From sequence record OZ035736.1: a stretch of DNA of 40,525 bases. One strand, given 5' to 3'. The translations under genes were made by a program, and so were the position numbers. The DNA is from Przondovirus NAN33P6. Below, one piece after another: positions 831 through 40,525 of the stretch (positions are counted from its first letter, which is position 1; every line of letters starts with the position of its first letter). The notes beneath the pieces are model-generated. The model did no database searches. It was not told the DNA's origin and saw only the letters and a program-made list of their open reading frames with translations.

Positions 831-2584
831 GTAACTCTCAGCAAGCCAAGAACGCCTTAATCATTGCGCAACTGAAGGGTGACTTTGTCGCCTTTCTCTT
901 CGTGCTCTGGAAGGCCCTGAACCTGCCGGAACCAACCAAGTGTCAAATCGACATGGCCAAGTGTCTGGCAGACCCAAAGAACAAGAAGTTTATCCTTCAG
1001 GCTTTCCGTGGTATCGGGAAGTCGTTCATCACGTGTGCGTTCGTAGTGTGGACCCTATGGCGTGACCCTCAGTTAAAGATACTGATTGTCTCAGCCTCGA
1101 AGGAACGTGCGGACGCTAACTCCATCTTCATCAAGAACATCATCGACTTGTTGCCTTTCCTGAGTGAGCTTAAGCCTCGCCCCGGTCAGCGTGACTCCGT
1201 GATTAGCTTTGATGTAGGCCCTGCCAAGCCTGACCACAGCCCGTCAGTTAAGTCTGTGGGTATTACGGGTCAGCTTACTGGTAGCCGTGCCGATATCATC
1301 ATTGCGGATGACGTGGAGATTCCCGGTAACTCTGCAACCCAAGGTGCCAGAGAGAAACTCTGGACGTTGGTTCAGGAGTTCGCCGCACTGTTGAAACCTC
1401 TGCCGACTAGTCGTGTTATCTATCTGGGTACCCCTCAGACCGAGATGACGCTCTACAAGGAACTTGAGGACAACCGTGGTTACTCCACAATCATCTGGCC
1501 TGCGCAGTATCCTCGCTCCAAAGAGGAAGACCTGTACTATGGCGACCGACTGGCTCCTATGCTCCGTAGTGAGTACGATGAGGACAAAGAGGGTCTCGGT
1601 AGTCAACCTACTGACCCGGTTCGATTTGACTCCATGGACCTTCAGGAACGTGAGGTGGAATACGGCAAGGCTGGCTATACACTTCAGTTCATGCTCAACC
1701 CGAACCTCAGTGACGCCGAGAAGTATCCTCTACGCCTCCGTGACGCTATCGTGTGCGGCCTACAGATGGACAAGGCCCCAATGCACTACCAGTGGCTGCC
1801 GAACCGTCAGAACCGCAATGAGGAGCTTCCTAACGTGGGCATGAAGGGTGACGAGATTTACTCCTTCCATACAGCCTCCAGTAACACTGGTGCGTATCAG
1901 GGTAAGATTCTGGTCATTGACCCCAGTGGTCGCGGTAAGGATGAGACCGGCTGGTGCGTACTGTACACCCTCAACGGTTACATCTACCTGATGGATGCTG
2001 GCGGTACTCGTGGGTACGAAGAGAAGTCCCTTGAGTTCCTCGCTAAGAAGGCTAAACAGTGGCAGGTACAGACTGTGGTCTTCGAGAGCAACTTCGGTGA
2101 CGGCATGTTCGGTAACGTGTTCCAGCCTGTGCTCCTGAAGCATCACCCGGCGCAACTCGAAGAGATTCGTGCTCGTGGTATGAAAGAGGTCCGCATTTGC
2201 GATACCCTTGAGCCTGTGCTGGCAAGTCACCGCTTGGTCATCCGGGATGAGGTCATCCGACAGGACTACCAGACGGCACGTGATGCAGACGGTAAGCACG
2301 CTCTGAAGTACAGCCTGTTCTACCAGATGACCCGTATGAGCCGTGAGAAGGGCGCTGTGGCACACGACGACCGCCTTGATGCGTTAGCATTGGGTGTCGA
2401 GTTCCTACGCTCTACGATGCAGCAGGACGCTGTTAAGATAGAGGCTGAGGTACTTCAGGAGTTCTTGGAGCATCACATGGAGAAGCCCCTGAGTAACATC
2501 TCCCAGTTCAGGGCCACCAGTAGCAACGGCGTGGACATCCGATGGGAAGACGATGGGGATGACACTATGTTCATCGCATGGTGA
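827..2584 (+). CDS. 19: Terminase large subunit (DNA maturase B), T7 gp19 homolog
   Basis: 585 aa; [35 protein letters not shown]...[18 protein letters not shown] nearly identical over long runs to recalled T7 gp19; apparent TTG start at 827 overlapping the gene 18.5 stop (TTGA), GGAGG at 816-820. Confidence 0.95.
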
Positions 2585-2664
2585 TTATGCAGGGATTGTG
2601 CATAAGGATTCATTAGGCCACGGAAGGCCACTTCAGGAAAACTTCAGGCATAACAGACACTTGG

Positions 2665-2687
2665 AATTAGGTAGCACTATAGGGAGA
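2665..2687 (+). promoter_or_regulatory. Phage RNAP promoter (phiOR-like, right end)
   Basis: AATTAGGTAGCACTATAGGGAGA; exact consensus 23-mer, +1 G at 2682. Confidence 0.85.
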
Positions 2688-2828
2688 GACCCCTAAAGAC
2701 TTACTATAAGAACACTTAAAGTTTCATTCATATAGTTATGCACTACAGGTCTCCTCTATGAGAGAGGGTAGTAATGATAATATCACCCTCTAACTATAAG
2801 ACACTAAGAGCTAACACAAGGAGGACCT

Positions 2829-2978
2829 ATGCGCTTACTGTTAACCTTACTGCGCCATAGGACTACTTGGCGGTTTCTGCTGGTACTTGCTGGTGCCCTT
2901 GGGGCTTCACTGGTTACTCAGCAACAACTCGGTGGACTGGAGACTCTCGTGTGCTCTCTACTCACTTGTAGCGATTAG
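2829..2978 (+). CDS. 19.5: T7 gp19.5 homolog (small protein of unknown function)
   Basis: 49 aa, below the ORF-track cutoff; MRLLLTLLRHRTTWRFLLVLAGALGASLVTQQQLGGLETLVCSLLTCSD resembles recalled T7 gp19.5 (ends ...SILTCSD); GGAGG RBS upstream. Confidence 0.75.
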   Translation: MRLLLTLLRHRTTWRFLLVLAGALGASLVTQQQLGGLETLVCSLLTCSD

Positions 2979-3059
2979 GGTCTTCCTGACGCGCTAGGGA
3001 TTCCGTAGTGATGCTTATCAGCATACACCACTCCATCCCTCTACAGTCAATACTTAAAG

Positions 3060-3440
3060 TTAACCTTAGGTGATTCACTGGGTCTACCTACGGGTCTATG
3101 CACTGACCTGAGGACTACCTGAGGTTACCTTTAAGAATTTTACATAAAGTTCTGAGTGTACATCTCACAGTTTAAACTTTTGGTTATCCCCCCGGTACCC
3201 TCCAGTTCACCCAAAGTAACCATAGGCCACCCCTAAACCTTCGGTTTAACCTTAGGTGGGACTGATGGGAAACCTGAGGTGATACTATATGTTGTGGTGA
3301 GTGGGACCTTGGGTGACTATATGTTGATGTCACTGTGTCCCTATCTGTTGGGCCTCTTTAAGTAACAACCTGAGGTTAGACCTGAGGCATCCACCTTAGG
3401 ACATCCTGAGGTAATACCTGAGACCATATACCTTAGGTTA
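3060..3440 (+). repeat. Array of about 10-12 CCT(G/T)AGG heptamers flanking the presumed genome end and terminal repeat
   Basis: CCTTAGG at 3064, 3250, 3394, 3431; CCTGAGG at 3107, 3118, 3273, 3369, 3381, 3405; variants CCTTCGG 3238, CCTTGGG 3307; positional analogue of the T7 CCTAAAG end repeats. Confidence 0.65.
3163..3350 (+). repeat. Probable direct terminal repeat (collapsed to one copy), with left genome end near 3163
   Basis: TCTCACAG at 3163-3170 resembles the T7 left-end start TCTCACAGTGTACGG; GTGTCCCTATCTGTT at about 3335-3350 resembles the T7 motif near the inner end of its 160-bp repeat; boundaries are estimates. Confidence 0.45.
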
Positions 3441-3506
3441 ACCATGGGCCATCCGGTGAGTCATTACTATAAGGCTATTGGGAGACCATTGTCAAATCAT
3501 CCAACC

Positions 3507-3529
3507 AATTAGGTAGCACTATAGGGAGA
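3507..3529 (+). promoter_or_regulatory. Phage RNAP promoter (phiOL-like, left end)
   Basis: AATTAGGTAGCACTATAGGGAGA exact consensus. Confidence 0.85.
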
Positions 3530-3608
3530 CACTTAAAGTGTTACTATGAGACCATCACCAATAAGAACACTATCACTATAGGTCTAACTAAAAGTTTAAC
3601 TTTGAGTG

Positions 3609-3637
3609 TTGACATTCAGATTCCGTTATGAGACATT
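3609..3637 (+). promoter_or_regulatory. Candidate host sigma70 early promoter (A1-like)
   Basis: TTGACA (3609-3614), 17-bp spacer, GACATT; same relative position as T7 A1 (TTGACT...GATACT); weak -10. Confidence 0.4.
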
Positions 3638-3743
3638 AGCAACCGTTGAGACAGACACAACGTTATCAACCACTAGCACACTTCGAGTTACTAGCTGGAT
3701 ACGGAAGGGTCTCAAGTAGCCATCAACCGGCATACGAAAATGG

Positions 3744-3772
3744 TTGACTCAACGATGCACAAGTAGTAACGT
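3744..3772 (+). promoter_or_regulatory. Candidate host sigma70 early promoter (A2-like)
   Basis: TTGACT (3744-3749), 17-bp spacer, TAACGT. Confidence 0.4.
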
Positions 3773-3861
3773 AGTAAGCAAGCAGTAACTAGCAGCACCG
3801 CTCTTTAACAATATGGATTAGTCAAAGCTGATATGTACACCATGACAATAGTGTTTAACTA

Positions 3862-3916
3862 GTGGCTACATTCGGGTCTCTGGCAAGGTACGTCCTGTCA
3901 CCCTGGGAGTAGCCAC
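3862..3916 (+). promoter_or_regulatory. Structured leader upstream of gene 0.3 (possible R0.3-type processing site)
   Basis: 8-bp inverted repeat GTGGCTAC (3862-3869) and GTAGCCAC (3909-3916) enclosing about 40 nt, just upstream of the gene 0.3 RBS. Confidence 0.3.
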
Positions 3917-3947
3917 GCTGATAACCACTAATTGAAGGATATACATC

Positions 3948-4415
3948 ATGATTTACACTAAAGAGCCAGCTAATAAAGTATTCGTATTCGTTACCGCTTA
4001 TCGTGGTCATGAGTCGCTCGAGGTTAACGAGAAGATGCTCAAGGGTCTCATTCGCACCATTAAGACCTATCCGGGTGCATATGGCAACATTCGTGATGAG
4101 CACGTGCAAGGCTGCTTTAAGGAAGATGGCATGCCTGAGGCAACACAAGAACGCACGCTCAAGGTTGAATGTACTGAGAAGCAAGCGGCAGAGCTGACGT
4201 GGTTGGCCTGTAAGACCTACTCGCAGGACGCTGTTCTGGTGGTGAACTCACAGACCCATACAGCCGCGCTATGGTCTATCGAGGATGTAGGCGAGTACCC
4301 ACAGGTCTACCCACGCTTGAAAGAGGTGTCCTTAGGTGGCACGCTGCAACAAGTGGACGCACCAAAGGGTGAATGCTATTCAATCATCGACGGGCAATAT
4401 TGGGAGGTGGTGTAA
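3948..4415 (+). CDS. 0.3: S-adenosylmethionine lyase (T3-type SAMase, anti-restriction), T3 gp0.3-like
   Basis: 155 aa; M.YTKEPA..VF......R.....EVN........RT....PG.YG......GC..E...ATQERT..V.C..KQAA.L...AC...QDAVLV.NSQTHTA.L resembles recalled T3 SAMase; unlike the T7 Ocr DNA mimic. Confidence 0.75.
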   Translation: MIYTKEPANKVFVFVTAYRGHESLEVNEKMLKGLIRTIKTYPGAYGNIRDEHVQGCFKEDGMPEATQERTLKVECTEKQAAELTWLACKTYSQDAVLVVNSQTHTAALWSIEDVGEYPQVYPRLKEVSLGGTLQQVDAPKGECYSIIDGQYWEVV

Positions 4416-6073: not shown

Positions 6074-8794
6074 ATGAACGCATTAAACATTGCACGTAAT
6101 GACTTCTCAGAGATTGAACTAGCAGCTATCCCGTACAATATCCTCAGTGAGCACTATGGGGACAAGCTGGCACGTGAGCAGTTAGCACTGGAGCACGAGG
6201 CGTACGAGCTGGGTGAGCAGCGTTTCCTGAAGATGTTAGAACGTCAGGTGAAAGCTGGCGAGTTCGCTGACAACGTGGCCGCTAAACCGCTGGTCCTAAC
6301 GTTGCACCCGCAGCTGACCAAGCGTATTGACGACTGGAAGGAGGAGCAAGCAAACGCTCGCGGTAAGAAACCTCGCGCATACTACCCGATTAAGCACGGT
6401 GTGGCTTCTGAGTTAGCTGTTAGCATGGGCGCTGAGGTGCTCAAAGAGAAGCGCGGAGTGTCCAGTGAGGCAATCGCACTGCTAACCATCAAGGTCGTCT
6501 TAGGGACGCTCACAGACGCCTCAAAGGCCACAATCCAGCAGGTGTCCTCACAGTTAGGCAAGGCCCTTGAGGATGAGACCCGCTTCGGTCGTATCCGTGA
6601 GCAGGAAGCCGCATACTTCAAGAAGAACGTAGCGGACCAGCTGGACAAGCGAGTAGGCCACGTGTACAAGAAGGCTTTCATGCAGGTAGTCGAGGCCGAT
6701 ATGATATCCAAAGGGATGCTGGGCGGCGACAACTGGGCGAGCTGGAAAACTGACGAGCAGATGCACGTAGGGACCAAGCTGCTGGAGCTGCTTATCGAGG
6801 GGACTGGTCTGGTGGAAATGACCAAGAACAAGATGGCCGATGGCTCCGACGATGTGACCAGTATGCAGATGGTCCAGCTGGCTCCGGCGTTTGTGGAACT
6901 CCTGAGCAAACGAGCGGGCGCACTCGCGGGTATCAGTCCGATGCACCAGCCGTGCGTAGTCCCTCCGAAACCTTGGGTGGAGACTGTAGGCGGTGGCTAC
7001 TGGTCAGTCGGTCGTCGCCCTCTGGCACTGGTGCGTACCCACTCCAAGAAGGCGCTGCGCCGCTACGCAGACGTGCACATGCCCGAGGTATACAAGGCGG
7101 TCAACCTCGCGCAAAACACGCCGTGGAAGGTGAACAAGAAGGTGCTGGCGGTAGTCAACGAGATTGTCAACTGGAAGCACTGCCCGGTTGCTGACGTCCC
7201 AGCGATTGAACGTGAAGAGCTACCACCACGCCCGGACGATATTGACACCAACGAGGTGGCACGTAAGGCATGGCGCAAGGAGGCCGCAGCGGTCTACCGT
7301 AAGGACAAGGCCCGCCAGTCTCGCCGTTTGTCAATGGAGTTCATGGTCGCACAGGCCAACAAGTTCGCTAACCACAAGGCCATCTGGTTTCCTTACAACA
7401 TGGACTGGCGCGGACGTGTGTACGCTGTGAGCATGTTCAACCCGCAGGGTAACGACATGACCAAGGGTATGCTGACGCTGGCTAAGGGCAAGCCAATCGG
7501 TCTCGATGGGTTCTACTGGCTGAAGATTCATGGTGCAAACTGTGCAGGCGTCGACAAGGTTCCCTTCCCTGAGCGCATCAAGTTCATCGAAGAGAACGAG
7601 GGCAACATTCTGGCGAGTGCAGCTGACCCACTGAATAACACTTGGTGGACACAGCAGGATTCACCATTCTGTTTCTTAGCGTTTTGCTTCGAGTACGCAG
7701 GCGTTAAGCATCACGGCCTGAATTACAACTGCTCGCTGCCGCTGGCGTTCGATGGGTCATGCTCTGGGATTCAACACTTCAGCGCTATGCTCCGCGATTC
7801 CATCGGTGGTCGTGCGGTAAACCTGCTGCCATCTGATACCGTGCAGGATATCTACAAGATTGTGGCTGATAAGGTCAACGAGGTGCTCCACCAGCACGCT
7901 GTCAACGGGTCTCAGACGGTGGTCGAGCAGATTGCCGACAAGGAGACTGGCGAGTTCCGCGAGAAGGTAACGCTGGGTGAGTCCGTACTGGCTGCGCAGT
8001 GGTTGCAATACGGCGTGACCCGCAAGGTGACTAAGCGTTCGGTCATGACGTTGGCGTACGGTTCCAAAGAGTTCGGCTTCCGCCAGCAAGTTCTTGAGGA
8101 TACCATTCAGCCAGCTATTGACAACGGCGAGGGCTTGATGTTTACGCACCCTAACCAAGCGGCTGGCTACATGGCTAAGCTGATTTGGGACGCTGTGACC
8201 GTGACCGTAGTGGCCGCTGTCGAGGCGATGAACTGGCTGAAGTCTGCCGCTAAACTGCTGGCCGCTGAAGTCAAGGACAAGAAGACCAAAGAGGTGCTCC
8301 GTAAGCGCTGCGCAATCCACTGGGTAACACCAGACGGCTTCCCGGTGTGGCAGGAATACCACAAGCGTGACCAAGCGCGCCTGAAGCTGACGTTTCTGGG
8401 TCAGGCCAACGTGTTCATGACGTACAACAAAGGGGATACCAAAGAGATTGACGCACATAAGCAGGAGTCAGGAATCGCTCCTAACTTTGTGCACTCACAG
8501 GATGGTAGTCACCTGCGCATGACCGTAGTGCACGCCAACGAGGTCTACGGGATTGACTCCTTCGCGCTCATTCATGACTCCTTCGGGACCATTCCGGCAG
8601 ACGCTGGGAATCTCTTTAAGGCAGTCCGTGAGACGATGGTCAAGACCTACGAGGATAACGATGTAATCGCTGACTTTTATGACCAGTTCGCTGACCAGCT
8701 GCATGAGTCTCAACTGGACAAAATGCCTGCGGTCCCGGCCAAAGGTGACCTGAATCTGCGCGATATCTTAGAGTCTGACTTCGCGTTCGCCTAA
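6074..8794 (+). CDS. 1: Single-subunit DNA-dependent RNA polymerase, T7 gp1 family
   Basis: 906 aa; extensive near-identity to recalled T7 RNAP (AIWFPYNMDWRGRVYAVSMFNPQGNDMTKG, LPLAFDGSCSGIQHFSAMLRD, HDSFGT, C-terminal FAFA); specificity-loop region differs (RLKLTFLGQANVFMTYN versus T7 RLNLMFLGQFRLQPTIN). Confidence 0.97.
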   Translation: MNALNIARNDFSEIELAAIPYNILSEHYGDKLAREQLALEHEAYELGEQRFLKMLERQVKAGEFADNVAAKPLVLTLHPQLTKRIDDWKEEQANARGKKPRAYYPIKHGVASELAVSMGAEVLKEKRGVSSEAIALLTIKVVLGTLTDASKATIQQVSSQLGKALEDETRFGRIREQEAAYFKKNVADQLDKRVGHVYKKAFMQVVEADMISKGMLGGDNWASWKTDEQMHVGTKLLELLIEGTGLVEMTKNKMADGSDDVTSMQMVQLAPAFVELLSKRAGALAGISPMHQPCVVPPKPWVETVGGGYWSVGRRPLALVRTHSKKALRRYADVHMPEVYKAVNLAQNTPWKVNKKVLAVVNEIVNWKHCPVADVPAIEREELPPRPDDIDTNEVARKAWRKEAAAVYRKDKARQSRRLSMEFMVAQANKFANHKAIWFPYNMDWRGRVYAVSMFNPQGNDMTKGMLTLAKGKPIGLDGFYWLKIHGANCAGVDKVPFPERIKFIEENEGNILASAADPLNNTWWTQQDSPFCFLAFCFEYAGVKHHGLNYNCSLPLAFDGSCSGIQHFSAMLRDSIGGRAVNLLPSDTVQDIYKIVADKVNEVLHQHAVNGSQTVVEQIADKETGEFREKVTLGESVLAAQWLQYGVTRKVTKRSVMTLAYGSKEFGFRQQVLEDTIQPAIDNGEGLMFTHPNQAAGYMAKLIWDAVTVTVVAAVEAMNWLKSAAKLLAAEVKDKKTKEVLRKRCAIHWVTPDGFPVWQEYHKRDQARLKLTFLGQANVFMTYNKGDTKEIDAHKQESGIAPNFVHSQDGSHLRMTVVHANEVYGIDSFALIHDSFGTIPADAGNLFKAVRETMVKTYEDNDVIADFYDQFADQLHESQLDKMPAVPAKGDLNLRDILESDFAFA

Positions 8795-32142: not shown

Positions 32143-35100
32143 ATGAGCTACGATAAGTCTAAACCTAGCGATTACGATGGCATCTTCCAGAAGGCAGCAG
32201 ACTCTCATGGGGTCTCCTATGACCTCCTGCGTAAGTTATCGTTTAACGAATCATCCTTCAACCCTAAGGCCGTCTCTAAGACTGGCCCTAAGGGCATCAT
32301 GCAGTTCACCCGCAACACGGCCCGAGCGATGGGCCTTAACGTGACAGACGGTGACGACGATGGGCGCTACAACCCTGAGTTAGCCATTGACGCTGGTGCT
32401 AAGCTGCTTGCGAGCCTCGTTAAGAAGTACAATGGGGATGAGCTGAAAGCAGCCCTAGCGTACAACCAAGGGGAAGGCCCAGCGGGTGCTCCCCAGCTCC
32501 AAGCGTACGACAAGGGAGACTTCGGGTCTATCTCGGAGGAAGGTCGTAACTACATGCGCAAGCTGCTGGATGTGGCCAAGAGTCCGAACTCAGGCGCACT
32601 GGAGGCGTTCGGTGGCATCACCCCAAAGGGTAAAGGGATTCCCGCAGAGGATGCCTTCAAGGGCATCGCTAAGGCTGGAAAGGTTGGTACCGAACTGCCG
32701 GAGTCCCATGGGTTCGACGTTGAAGGTGTAGCGCAGGAAGCGCCCAACACTCCGTACGCTAAGGACTTCTGGGAGAAGACCGGGACGACTCTCGACGAGT
32801 ATAACGCTCGGTCAACCTTCTTCGGGTTCGGGGATGCGGCTGAAGCTCAGATTCAGAACTCCACATTAGGTGTGGCCTTCCGTGCTGCGCGTGCCGACGA
32901 TGGGTATGATGTGTTCAAGGACACGATGACCCCGACTCGCTGGAACTCTTATGTTCCATCCAAGGAAGACTTGCAGAAGCTGCGCGACTCTGGGTTACCT
33001 CCGAGTTACTACGGTGTGGTGACTGGTGGTGACGGCGAGAACTGGGATGCACTCATCAAGCTGGCCAAGGATAACTTCGAGGCTGACCAACGGGCCGCTG
33101 AGGCTGGTACTGGGGCGAAACTCGCTGCTGGTATCGTTGGTGCTGGTGTAGACCCACTAAGCTATGCACCTCTGGTCGGTGTGGCCGGGAAAGGACTCAA
33201 GGTGGTCAATAAGGCCCTGCGAGTAGGCGCACAGGCTGGAGCACTCAGTGTTGCCTCTGAGGGAATCCGTACGTCAGTAGCTGGTGGTGAAGCTCACTAC
33301 GCTGATGCAGCACTTGGCGGGTTACTGTTCGGTGCTGGCATGTCGGCTCTTAGTGACGCTGTGGCCGCTGGTATCCGCAAGGCTCGTGGAGTAGACTCCG
33401 TGAATGAGTTCGCTGGTCCAGCACTCCGCATGGAAGCACGAGAGACTGCCATAAACACTGGGGGTCACGACACCTCGACTCTACCTCCAGAGAACTTCTC
33501 GTTCGAGCAGGGCCACAGAGGTGTTCCGTTCGCCGACCACCCGACCGAAGAGGGCGCAGTGGTTCTGGCTAATGGTTCCATCCTGAGCGATACCAACCCG
33601 CTTAACCCAAGGACTCAACGTGACTTCGCAGAGATTGACCCAGAGCGTGCAGCCCCCGGTATCAGGCTCGGTGGGTTCACTGAGATTGGCCTGAAGACCT
33701 TAGGGTCCAAGGATGCTGGTGTTCGTGCAATCGCTCAGGACCTCGTGCGCTCTCCAACAGGGATGCAATCAGGGTCTAGTGGTAAGTTCGGGGCTACAGC
33801 TTCGGACATCCATGAGCGGCTCCATGCGACTGACCAACGGATGTACAACCAACTGTATGACGCTGTTGACCGCGCCATGAAGGACCCAGAGTTCTCCGTG
33901 GGTGAGCAGAAGATGTCACGCAGAGCCATCCGTCAGGAAGTCTACAAGCGTGCTGCCTTGGCGATTGAGCGCCCAGAGTTACAGGCTGATTTGACCAAAG
34001 GTGAACGTGAGGTGATGGACCTGCTGAAGGAGCACTTCGACACCAAGCGTGAACTGATGGAACAGCCGGGTATCTTCGGTAACGCTAACGCCGTGAGCAT
34101 CTTCCCCGGTAGTCGACACAAGGGTACCTACGTGCCTAACGTGTACGACAGGGGCGCTAAGGAACTGATGATGCAGAAGCTGGGTGGACCTGAAGGGCTC
34201 CAACAGGCAATCGCTCAGAGCTGGCTCACCAGTTACCGAGTGCGTCCTGAGGTCAAGGCACGTGTCGACGAGTACCTTATGGAACTCAACGGCTACAAGT
34301 CGGTAGACCAAGTGACACCTGAGGTGGTCCAGAAGCACGCCATTGACAAGGCTTACGGTATCAGTCACACAGAGGACTTCACAGCGTCCAGCGTCATTGA
34401 CGACAACATCACAGGTCTGGTCGGTATCGAGAACAACTCGTTCCTTGAAGCCCGTAACATGTTCGACAGCGACATCCCGGTCACCTTGCCGGACGGGTCA
34501 ACCTTCAGTGTCAACGACCTGAGGGACTTCGATATGGCACGGATTATCCCAGCGTACGACCGTCGAGTTAACGGTGATATCTCCATCATGGGTGGCAGTG
34601 GGAAGACCACGAAGCAGCTCAAGGACGAAATCATGGCGTTAGACAAGCGGGCCGAACGTAAGGGGCAACTGAAGGGTGAAGTGGAAGCGCTGAAGGACAC
34701 CGTTAAGATTCTCACTGGGCGTGCTCGACGTAACAACGATACAGCCTTTGAGACGGCTATGCGTTCCCTGAATGATCTAGCGTTCTTCGCTAAGAACTTC
34801 TACATGGGTCCGCAGAACCTCACAGAGATTGCTGGGATGTTGGCTAAGGGTAACGTTAAGGCGATGCTACACGGTATCCCAACGTTGCGAGACCTCGCCA
34901 CCAGAACCTCTCCGGTGTCGGGTAGTGAACTTCGTGAACTCCATGGGGCGCTGTTCGGTAAGGAACTCGACCAGTTAATCCGTCCTGGACGTGAGGACAT
35001 CGTACAGCGAATCCGTGAGGCTTCCGATACCAGTGGAGCCATGGCGTCAGTCATTGGTACCATTAAGTTCGGCACTCAGGAGCTGTCAGCACGCTCTCCT

Positions 35101-40311: not shown

Positions 40312-40521
40312 ATGTTGTCCCTAGACTTCAACAACGAAGTTATCAAGGCGGCTCCCATTGCGGGGGTCGCTGGGGCCGATGGTGTAGCGAGGCTCTTCTG
40401 GGGCCTCTCACTCAACGAGTGGTTCTACGTCGCGGCAATCGCCTACACAGTGGTTCAGATTGGTGCCAAGGTAGTCGATAAAATCATTGATTGGAAGAAA
40501 GCAAACAGAGGTGACTCATGA
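40312..40521 (+). CDS. 17.5: Class II holin, T7 gp17.5 homolog
   Basis: 69 aa; MLSLDFNNE.IKAAPI.G...AD..ARLF.GLSLNEWFYVAAIAYTVVQIGAKVVDK.IDWKKAN nearly identical to recalled T7 gp17.5; stop overlaps an ATG at 40518. Confidence 0.95.
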   Translation: MLSLDFNNEVIKAAPIAGVAGADGVARLFWGLSLNEWFYVAAIAYTVVQIGAKVVDKIIDWKKANRGDS

Positions 40522-40525
40522 GAGA

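What the first reader, a model, noticed from the sequence alone, without database searches (positions are those of the whole stretch)
3060..3440. Presumed physical genome ends: T7-like left-end motif, collapsed terminal repeat, and an array of CCT(G/T)AGG heptamers
Between gene 19.5 and the first promoter there is no coding capacity but dense short-repeat structure: about ten CCTGAGG/CCTTAGG heptamers plus variants, a TCTCACAG motif at 3163 like the first bases of T7 DNA, and GTGTCCCTATCTGTT near 3340 like the inner end of the T7 repeat. In T7 the analogous CCTAAAG repeats flank the terminal redundancy and are implicated in concatemer processing. Here the heptamer differs (CCTNAGG), suggesting co-evolved recognition by the terminase or maturation machinery.
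Basis: partly seen in the sequence, partly recalled or inferred. Interest (0 to 1): 0.6.

Follow-up and report, generated by a model that had tools for sequence, protein, structure and literature searches.

The report
T7-type genome ends, collapsed repeat
This stretch is the place where the two physical ends of a K11-like (T7-family) Klebsiella phage genome were joined by the assembler, with its 180-bp terminal repeat, polymerase pause site and flanking short repeats; this arrangement is well known in relatives and therefore ordinary.

Summary
Ten exact CCT(G/T)AGG heptamers, all on the + strand, lie in 3064-3437, against 13 in the other 40 kb (Poisson P about 2e-16). TCTCACAG is at 3163 and GTGTCCCTATCTGTT at 3335-3349.

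The window is a circularly permuted Przondovirus (K11-like) genome with one copy of the direct terminal repeat. By homology to the curated K11 record, to T7, and to isolate records that start at TCTCACAG and end at ...GTGTCCCT, the repeat is 3163-3342 (180 bp). Published run-off sequencing gives 180-183 bp in this genus. ATCTGTT at 3343-3349, its only copy in the genome, is the class II pause signal at the concatemer junction.

The heptamers are this genus's version of T7's CCTAAAG repeats:
- three invariant copies in a highly conserved non-coding block left of the repeat (2979-3162)
- two inside the repeat
- a roughly 12-bp-phased array to its right, whose copy number varies between relatives

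Other T7-like lineages use CCTAAAG, CCTAATG or CCTTGAG. Recognition by the maturation machinery is plausible but untested. T3 and T7 share one heptamer yet differ in packaging specificity. This is a known kind of feature, of low interest.

The parts
2666..2687 (+). Phage RNA polymerase promoter, equivalent to phiOR. It is the last promoter upstream of the junction. In a concatemer its transcripts run through gene 19.5 and the terminal repeat into the pause site.
   Evidence: Exact match to the genome's own 22-nt promoter consensus. There are 12 sites, all on the + strand, against 0 expected. It is collinear with K11 phiOR at 40503-40525. No terminator-like site was found in 2500-4000.
2829..2978 (+). 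Gene 19.5 homologue (49 aa), the last gene before the right genome end.
   Evidence: ORF list. phrog_2193, E = 1.4e-22. Same length and position as K11 gp19.5 and T7 gene 19.5.
2979..3162 (+). Highly conserved non-coding block at the right genome end, directly left of the terminal repeat. It holds three invariant heptamers (3064, 3107, 3118) and two hairpin-prone inverted repeats (2996-3040 and 3049-3071/3117-3139). It is the best candidate for the cis-acting recognition and processing element, the pacB-type site.
   Evidence: 97.7-99.5% identity among 19 distinct relatives, against 90% for the 3' part of gene 19 and 73-77% downstream. Exactly three heptamers in all 26 distinct left flanks. 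DNA fold z = -3.2 and inverted repeat I1. T7 has equivalent inverted repeats at the same place.
3163..3342 (+). Direct terminal repeat, a single collapsed copy of 180 bp. The virion left end is predicted to begin at T3163 (TCTCACAG...). The right end is predicted to stop at T3342 (...GTGTCCCT). It contains two exact heptamers (3250, 3273), three one-mismatch variants, and a dyad TAAACC-TTC-GGTTTA at 3234-3248.
   Evidence: Boundaries by homology to K11, T7 and isolate records with both ends. Length range 178-184, mode 180, in 40 distinct relatives. 180-183 bp by Sanger run-off (PMC10438801). The dyad covaries.
3335..3349 (+). Concatemer-junction signal: the invariant 15-mer GTGTCCCTATCTGTT. 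The right-end cut falls after T3342. ATCTGTT (3343-3349), preceded by T, is the class II pause/termination signal for the phage RNA polymerase.
   Evidence: Identical 15-mer in T7, K11, T3-like and other T7-like contigs. 100% conserved in relatives, though that set was selected by this 15-mer. It is the only ATCTGTT on either strand of the window. K11 annotates this position as 'concatemeric junction'. The class II motif definition comes from bioRxiv 10.64898/2026.02.12.705533.
3369..3437 (+). Tandem array of heptamer units right of the junction: CCTGAGG, CCTGAGG, CCTTAGG, CCTGAGG, CCTGAGA, CCTTAGG. Spacings are 12, 13, 11, 12 and 14 nt. It is the equivalent of T7's right-hand CCTAAAG array.
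   Evidence: In 44 distinct relatives there are 2-6 units, spaced 11-15 nt (mode 12), with unit consensus A-CCT(G/T)AGG-T-N-A. Copy number changes by whole-unit indels. This is the least conserved segment, at 73%.
3466..3495 (-). Leftward sigma-70-type promoter-like site (TTGACA, 18 nt spacer, TATAGT). It points toward the array and the left end, and is positionally like T7's leftward promoter A0.
   Evidence: 11 of 12 consensus matches. T7 annotates a leftward E. coli promoter A0 at 224, between the repeat and phiOL. A similar sequence is present in K11. Function not tested.
3508..3529 (+). Phage promoter equivalent to phiOL, the first promoter inside the left end.
   Evidence: Exact consensus match. 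Collinear with K11 phiOL at 479-501.

Best explanation
Window 2979-3529 is the concatemer junction of a K11-like (Przondovirus) T7-family phage. The assembler joined the two virion ends through the 180-bp direct terminal repeat and kept a single copy of it.

**Predicted virion DNA**
- It starts at 3163 (TCTCACAG...).
- It runs around the permuted assembly and ends at 3342 (...GTGTCCCT).
- Total length is about 40,705 bp, with 3163-3342 present at both ends.

**How it most likely works, by analogy with T7/T3 (inferred, not shown here)**
1. Replication produces head-to-tail concatemers carrying one repeat per junction.
2. Phage RNA polymerase starting at the phiOR-type promoter (2666-2687) transcribes through gene 19.5, the conserved block and the repeat. 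It pauses at the class II signal T-ATCTGTT (3342-3349).
3. The paused complex, with lysozyme and terminase gp18/gp19, starts maturation.
4. Cuts are made on either side of the repeat, and the repeat is duplicated so that both daughter genomes keep a copy.

**The heptamers**
The CCT(G/T)AGG heptamers are this genus's version of T7's CCTAAAG short repeats. I judge the most likely role to be phased, oriented, low-specificity contact sites for the maturation machinery. They occur about one per 12 bp, always in the same orientation, on both sides of and inside the repeat. The three invariant copies in the conserved block left of the repeat matter most. The right-hand array tolerates gain and loss of units.
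For: **Shown by sequence and homology**
- Genome type and gene context are T7-like: gp18, gp19, 19.5, a SAM hydrolase-like gene and a single-subunit RNA polymerase. Best DNA hits are Klebsiella przondoviruses at up to 97%.
- There is one repeat copy, with no terminal overlap. The window ends are contiguous in relatives.
- End boundaries match the K11 annotation and T7. At least 12 records start at TCTCACAG. Six records end at GTGTCCCT, five of them the same contigs.
- Repeat length is 178-184 in 40 relatives, and 180-183 bp by Sanger sequencing (PMC10438801).
- ATCTGTT is unique in the genome. It lies in a 15-mer that is identical in T7, K11, T3-like and other T7-like phages.

**From papers**
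- CJ is a class II pause/terminator with a strictly conserved 7-base motif that must be preceded by A, C or T.
- The polymerase-lysozyme complex pauses at the junction and interacts with gp18/gp19 to start maturation (PMC3276506, citing Zhang and Studier 2004).

**Heptamers**
- About 80-fold local enrichment.
- 278 of 288 copies across relatives' junctions have G or T at the centre, meaning one orientation. Spacing is 11-15 nt, mode 12.
- Arrays with a different core occupy the same positions in other T7-like lineages.
- The block 2979-3162 is 98-99% conserved although non-coding.
Against: **Gaps in evidence**
- No reads or virion DNA were available, so the ends of this particular phage are inferred, not mapped.
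- One relative's record (K5, KR149291) annotates a 392-bp repeat that extends through the array and phiOL. That disagrees with K11, T7 and the Sanger-validated lengths. I treat it as over-extended but cannot prove it.

**Against a strict heptamer role**
- K11 has only two exact copies right of the junction, and L016 has none. The array changes by whole units between close relatives.
- Mixed cores coexist in single genomes. T7 has CCTAAGG next to CCTAAAG left of its repeat, and CCTTGAGG/CCCTAAGGG inside it.
- T3-like and T7 phages share CCTAAAG, yet package their own DNA preferentially through gp19, while gp18 is interchangeable.

**Other**
- No binding protein for the heptamers is identified in any paper I could read.
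Confidence: 0.85

Rival explanations
1. The heptamer arrays are non-functional by-products. Short repeats expand and contract by replication slippage or unequal recombination in a non-coding region, and they persist only because nothing selects against them.
For: Copy number right of the junction ranges from 0-5 exact, or 2-6 relaxed, units among close relatives. Changes occur by whole units of about 12 nt. K11 and L016 have decayed arrays. The right array is the least conserved segment, at 73%.
Against: Arrays occupy the same positions, with the same orientation and the same 12-13 nt period, in T7, T3-like, K11-like and at least two further lineages, even though the core differs. Core positions stay near-invariant while spacers vary, although the unit selection partly presupposes this. 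The three copies left of the repeat are invariant in all 26 distinct flanks. Centre base C is never seen and A is rare.
Confidence: 0.2
2. The repeats and their spacers serve DNA replication at the ends rather than packaging. They would place primase recognition sites just outside the repeat on the lagging-strand template at each end. Alternatively they would form part of the secondary origins associated with phiOL and phiOR. Either way they would control how much of the repeat stays single-stranded for concatemer formation.
For: T7-type primase sites ([G/T]GGTC, GTGTC; recognition sequences taken from my own knowledge of T7 gp4) are strand-asymmetric around the repeat. Left of it they are on the + strand only: window 3080 and 3092; T7 five sites; T3-like four of five. 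Right of it they are on the - strand only: window 3422 and 3484; T7 five; T3-like two. The best-conserved unit of the right array (CCTGAGACCATA, 3417-3428) contains one such site.
Against: The numbers are small, and the T7 sites come from repeated units, so they are not independent. The sites lie mostly in the spacers, not in the heptamer core. Genome-wide site density is similar on the two strands (187 against 204). The specificity of this phage's primase is not known.
Confidence: 0.1
3. The heptamers are lineage-specific specificity determinants. Each lineage's terminase would read its own heptamer, so the CCTAAAG to CCTKAGG change reflects co-evolution of protein and site.
For: The core differs between lineages: CCTAAAG in T7 and T3-like, CCTKAGG in K11-like, CCTAATG in three other contigs, CCTTGAG in another. 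The period is roughly one helical turn and the orientation is fixed. The cores lie next to the cut sites.
Against: T3 and T7 discriminate their own DNA through gp19, yet T7 and the T3-like contigs use the same heptamer. Mixed cores occur within one genome. Core differences track phylogeny, so drift explains them equally well. Copy number is not maintained.
Confidence: 0.12

Closest known systems
Klebsiella phage K11 (EU734173) genome ends and other Przondovirus direct terminal repeats
   Same: The sequence is collinear from phiOR through gene 19.5, the conserved block, the repeat (TCTCACAG...GTGTCCCT, 180/181 bp), the annotated 'concatemeric junction' CTATCTGTT, and phiOL. The heptamer family is the same. 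The genus's repeat length was validated experimentally at 180-183 bp (PMC10438801).
   Different: The window has five exact units plus one variant right of the junction. K11 has two exact units plus degenerate ones. The window also lacks a stretch of about 150 bp that K11 has between the array and phiOL. The window's repeat is collapsed by assembly.
Bacteriophage T7 concatemer junction: 160-bp terminal repetition, CJ class II pause site, and flanking CCTAAAG short-repeat arrays
   Same: The first 8 bases (TCTCACAG) are identical, as is the 15-mer GTGTCCCTATCTGTT spanning the right cut and pause signal. Heptamer arrays lie left of, inside and right of the repeat, with a 12-13 nt period and a single orientation. 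Inverted repeats lie left of the repeat. A dyad AACC-TTC-GGTT sits inside the repeat. The phiOR and phiOL promoters and a leftward host-type promoter are present in both.
   Different: The repeat is 180 bp rather than 160 bp. The dominant core is the interrupted palindrome CCT(G/T)AGG rather than CCTAAAG. There are about 6 units to the right rather than about 12. The repeat interior is only loosely similar.
T3/T7 packaging signal pacB + pacC
   Same: The functional logic is the same as that summarised in PMC9860248. A recognition site and a cleavage site sit at the concatemer junction and are used by gp18/gp19. The recognition sequence lies within the terminal 5% of the genome, and specificity comes through gp19 (PMC3276506). 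The conserved block 2979-3162 is in the expected position.
   Different: I could not read the primary papers (Chung and Hinkle 1990; Hashimoto and Fujisawa 1992; Tsuchida et al. 1996). The exact pacB/pacC coordinates therefore could not be aligned to this window, and no equivalence is shown.

Membership tests
T7-group (Studiervirinae) direct-terminal-repeat genome ends / concatemer junction | T7-like gene context: terminase genes 18 and 19 and gene 19.5 upstream; early genes and a single-subunit RNA polymerase downstream; phage promoters on one strand | tested here: met
   PHROG hits for gp18, gp19, 19.5, a SAM hydrolase-like gene and RNA polymerase. Twelve consensus promoters, all on the + strand. 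Best hits are Przondovirus genomes.
T7-group (Studiervirinae) direct-terminal-repeat genome ends / concatemer junction | Left-end sequence TCTCACAG at the start of the repeat | tested here: met
   3163-3170. The T7 and K11 records start with it, as do at least 12 isolate records.
T7-group (Studiervirinae) direct-terminal-repeat genome ends / concatemer junction | Right end ...GTGTCCCT, followed in the concatemer by ATCTGTT | tested here: met
   3335-3349. T7 and K11 right ends. Six isolate records end exactly there.
T7-group (Studiervirinae) direct-terminal-repeat genome ends / concatemer junction | Repeat length within the genus range | tested here: met
   180 bp here. Range is 178-184 in 40 distinct relatives. 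180-183 bp by primer walking (PMC10438801).
T7-group (Studiervirinae) direct-terminal-repeat genome ends / concatemer junction | Short oriented heptamer repeats on both sides of the repeat | tested here: met
   Three copies left, two inside, five plus one right. Same layout in T7, T3-like and other lineages.
T7-group (Studiervirinae) direct-terminal-repeat genome ends / concatemer junction | Physical ends of virion DNA at these positions, with the repeat present twice (2x coverage) | not testable with these tools
   No reads or virion DNA available. Inferred by homology only.
Class II pause/termination signal of T7-type RNA polymerase | Seven-base motif ATCTGTT in the non-template strand, immediately preceded by A, C or T | tested here: met
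   T-ATCTGTT at 3342-3349 on the + strand, the sense of all 12 promoters. Motif definition.
Class II pause/termination signal of T7-type RNA polymerase | The polymerase actually pauses or terminates there | not testable with these tools
   Needs in vitro transcription with this phage's polymerase.
T3/T7 pac site (pacB recognition + pacC cleavage) | Sequence needed in cis for terminase-dependent packaging of a plasmid or concatemer | not testable with these tools
   Only positional and conservation evidence: 2979-3162 is 98-99% conserved. The primary papers are not held in the library.

The most novel reading that the evidence does not exclude
The heptamers may not be one fixed motif. They may form a family of related cores (CCT-N-A-N-G, with extended form A-CCTNAGG-T) laid out as an oriented lattice of about 12 bp around every T7-type terminal repeat. 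A ring- or filament-forming maturation factor, either terminase or the paused polymerase-terminase complex, would load on this lattice. Lineage-specific cores would tune that loading. Comparing the lineages found here gives a natural swap experiment that could settle what these repeats do. By my own recollection their function has been unresolved since T7 was sequenced; that is not checked against a paper.
Probability: 0.2. Interest if true: 0.5.

Novelty: new member of a known kind. Interest (0 to 1): 0.2.

Why it matters
**Practical value**
- The finding tells an annotator where to open this genome: start at 3163 and append a second copy of 3163-3342 at the right end.
- It also shows that the short ORFs some databases call in this stretch are not genes.

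**Scientific value**
- The ends, repeat and pause site are textbook T7 biology and are already annotated in K11.
- The modest added value is comparative. The non-coding block left of the repeat is more conserved than the neighbouring terminase gene.
- The heptamer array right of it is evolutionarily labile, and its core differs by lineage.
- Together these point experiments on T7-type concatemer maturation at the left block rather than at the more eye-catching array. A 2026 review still describes this maturation process as poorly understood.

Tried and rejected
- **Rfam.** A scan of 2500-4000 at E up to 1 gave no match. There is no evidence for a known structured RNA.
- **Terminators.** The intrinsic terminator scan found none.
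- **Literature on the T7 heptamer.** 'CCTAAAG' alone matched 3,984 unrelated papers, and adding 'terminal repeat' gave nothing useful. 'CCTGAGG' + Klebsiella + 'terminal repeat' gave two papers that, from their titles, looked irrelevant and that I did not open. I therefore found no paper describing the Przondovirus heptamers. The library lacks most subscription journals.
- **Primary sources.** Tsuchida et al. 1996 is not held. PMC9860248 has no supplement held. The pacB/pacC coordinates could not be transferred.
- **False positives.** The exact 15-mer search also hit about 40 contigs that are not T7-like junctions, for example L017, L028, L038 and L050, which are coding or unrelated contexts. 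These were excluded.
- **K5's 392-bp repeat annotation.** Considered as an alternative repeat length and rejected as an outlier against K11, T7, six records ending at GTGTCCCT and the Sanger-validated lengths.
- **Co-variation of heptamer type with gp18/gp19 sequence.** Not run. With about five lineages, any correlation would be indistinguishable from shared ancestry.
- **Restriction-site avoidance of CCTNAGG.** Rejected. The site is over-represented, not avoided.

Full report
**1. Observation**

There are ten exact CCT(G/T)AGG heptamers, all on the + strand, at 3064, 3107, 3118, 3250, 3273, 3369, 3381, 3394, 3405 and 3431. One-mismatch variants lie at 3220, 3238, 3307 and 3417.

The other 40,144 bases carry 13 + strand copies. 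That gives 0.12 expected in the region and a Poisson P of 2e-16. Counting both orientations, P is 3e-13. CCTGAGG is the most repeated 7-mer in the region. TCTCACAG is at 3163, and GTGTCCCTATCTGTT is at 3335-3349, a single copy.

Only 3369-3437 is a tandem array, with spacings of 12, 13, 11, 12 and 14 nt once CCTGAGA at 3417 is counted. The other copies are dispersed.

**2. What genome this is**

The best DNA matches are Klebsiella przondoviruses (K11-like T7 relatives), with up to 97% identity over the junction. The flanking genes are:
- terminase small subunit (30-287)
- terminase large subunit (827-2584)
- a gene 19.5 homologue (2829-2978)
- a SAM hydrolase-like early gene (3948-4415)
- a single-subunit RNA polymerase (6074-8794)

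Twelve copies of one phage promoter consensus lie on the + strand. Two of them bracket the region: 2666-2687 (phiOR-type) and 3508-3529 (phiOL-type).

The window has no terminal overlap. Its last and first 400 bases are contiguous in relatives, running from holin to the small terminase. The window is therefore a circular permutation of a whole genome with one copy of the repeat.

**3. Where the ends are**

- The curated K11 record annotates 'terminal repeat' 1-180 (41001-41181 at the right end), 'concatemeric junction' 180-188, phiOL and phiOR. The window is collinear with all of these.
- T7 starts with TCTCACAG and ends with ...GTGTCCCT. ATCTGTT follows the left copy of its 160-bp repeat.
- Among contigs recovered with the 15-mer, at least 12 isolate records start exactly at TCTCACAG.
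- A second scan found six records that end exactly at ...GTGTCCCT. Five of them are the same contigs.
- In 40 distinct relatives, the distance from TCTCACAG to GTGTCCCT is 178-184 bp, mode 180.
- Elek et al. [quoted passage not shown] They also describe assemblers deleting the repeat or placing it mid-contig.

By homology, the repeat here is 3163-3342 (180 bp) and the virion genome is about 40,705 bp. One record (K5) annotates a 392-bp repeat. It is the only discordant datum.

**4. The pause site**

ATCTGTT at 3343-3349 is preceded by T and lies on the sense strand of every promoter. It matches the class II pause/termination motif of T7 RNA polymerase, for which the T7 concatemer junction is the natural example. 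It is the only ATCTGTT on either strand of the window, where about five would be expected from length alone. The surrounding 15-mer is identical in T7, K11, T3-like and other T7-like contigs whose repeats are otherwise diverged.

**5. Anatomy and conservation**

I aligned 19-28 distinct przondovirus junctions. Identity to the window by segment:

| Segment | Coordinates | Identity |
|---|---|---|
| Gene 19, 3' part | 2100-2584 | 90% |
| Gene 19.5 | 2829-2978 | 97% |
| Non-coding spacer | 2979-3036 | 99.5% |
| Non-coding block left of the repeat | 3037-3162 | 97.7% |
| Terminal repeat | 3163-3342 | 88.6% |
| Junction 15-mer | 3335-3349 | 100% |
| Right-hand array | 3350-3440 | 73% |
| Early region downstream | 3529-3947 | 76-77% |

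The relatives were selected by the 15-mer, so its 100% follows from the selection.

The left block holds exactly three heptamers in every relative. It also holds two hairpin-prone inverted repeats, at 2996-3040 and at 3049-3071/3117-3139. The DNA fold has z = -3.2. T7 has counterparts at the same place.

The right-hand array varies from 2 to 6 units by whole-unit indels. It keeps the unit consensus A-CCT(G/T)AGG-T-N-A and a spacing of 11-15 nt, mode 12. Across all junction zones the centre base is G 150 times, T 128, A 10 and C 0, so the orientation is fixed.

**6. Other lineages**

The same layout is seen with other cores: heptamers left of, inside and right of the repeat, with a 12-13 nt period.

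| Core | Lineage or contigs |
|---|---|
| CCTAAAG | T7-like and T3-like phages |
| CCTAATG | L013, L021, L046 |
| CCTTGAG | L052 |

Cores are mixed within genomes. T7 has CCTAAGG next to CCTAAAG left of its repeat, and CCTTGAGG, CCCTAAGGG and CCCTTGGG inside it. The K11-type core is thus a shift within one motif family, not a new motif.

**7. Mechanism**

Shown here: sequence identity of the ends and pause signal with experimentally characterised relatives, and the conservation pattern.

Taken from papers:
- The polymerase-lysozyme complex pauses at the junction and interacts with gp18/gp19 to start maturation.
- T3 and T7 prefer their own DNA through gp19, using sequences within the terminal 5% of the genome.
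- gp18 is interchangeable between the two phages (PMC3276506).
- The packaging signal is described as pacB plus pacC (PMC9860248).

Inferred: the phiOR-type promoter drives transcription into 3343-3349. The conserved block 2979-3162 is the recognition and processing element. The heptamers are phased, oriented contact sites of low individual specificity.

T3-like and T7 phages share a core yet differ in packaging specificity. K11 and L016 have decayed arrays. Cores are mixed within genomes. Neutral slippage is weakened by the persistence of position, period and orientation across lineages.

A replication-based alternative has suggestive but thin support. T7-type primase sites sit on the + strand left of the repeat and on the - strand right of it, in the window, in T7 and in a T3-like phage.

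**8. Novelty**

The ends, repeat and junction signal are already annotated in K11 and were validated experimentally in the genus. I found no paper in the searchable library that describes the przondovirus heptamer core, but it is visible in K11 and is a variant within the T7 motif family. This is a new member of a known kind.

[quoted passage not shown] The comparative pattern therefore has some use for experiment design.

**9. Limits**

- No reads were available, so there is no direct terminus mapping.
- The primary T7/T3 pac papers are not held.
- Protein binding and polymerase pausing cannot be tested with these tools.

Noticed in passing
window 3234-3248 (inside the terminal repeat): The dyad TAAACC-TTC-GGTTTA is kept across T7-like phages with compensatory changes in the outer pair: AAACC/GGTTT, TAACC/GGTTA, and CAACC/GGTTG in T7. 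The 3-nt centre also flips between TTC and its reverse complement GAA. This suggests selection for a hairpin, cruciform or dimer-binding site, and palindrome-mediated inversion.
   Followed up: partly
window 3080, 3092 (+ strand) and 3422, 3484 (- strand); T7 L005/L006; L070: T7-type primase recognition sites are strand-asymmetric around the repeat. They lie on the + strand only to its left and on the - strand only to its right, in the window, in T7 and (with one exception) in a T3-like contig. The numbers are small and the T7 sites are repeats of one unit.
   Followed up: partly
window 3466-3495, - strand: A near-consensus leftward sigma-70 promoter-like site (TTGACA, 18 nt spacer, TATAGT) lies between the array and phiOL. 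It points at the left end, like T7's leftward promoter A0 at position 224.
   Followed up: no
window 3188-3199: A poly-C run varies from 5 to 8 C among relatives. It is followed by GGTACC (3194-3199), which I recall as the KpnI recognition sequence. GGTACC is kept in most relatives and reads GGTGCC in a few.
   Followed up: no
L001/L002 (Klebsiella phage K5, KR149291): The record annotates a 392-bp terminal repeat running through the heptamer array and phiOL. K11, T7 and the Sanger-validated przondoviruses indicate about 180 bp. This is probably an over-extended annotation.
   Followed up: partly
window 34246-34524: Three CCTGAGG copies lie within 280 nt, far from the junction. This is the only other local cluster of the heptamer. 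I did not check what is encoded there.
   Followed up: no
window-wide, e.g. 8790, 9603, 16054, 17864: CCTAAGG occurs 11 times on the + strand outside the junction and accounts for much of the genome-wide excess of CCTNAGG. It may reflect stop codon plus ribosome-binding sequence (TAAGGAG). Not checked.
   Followed up: no
L017, L028, L038, L054, L069, L078, L079, L081, L084, L087, L089: The exact 15-mer GTGTCCCTATCTGTT also occurs in a set of unrelated, mostly much larger viral contigs (about 44-160 kb), always followed by GTTCC(C/T)GTCATAAGATTTCTAAGAGG. This looks like a conserved element of another phage group, not a T7-type junction.
   Followed up: no
window 3350-3505 versus K11 (L003) 189-478: K11 and several relatives carry about 150 extra bases between the heptamer array and phiOL (GAGCTGACTGCTCACGAGG...TTTAGCAGT repeats). 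The window lacks them.
   Followed up: no
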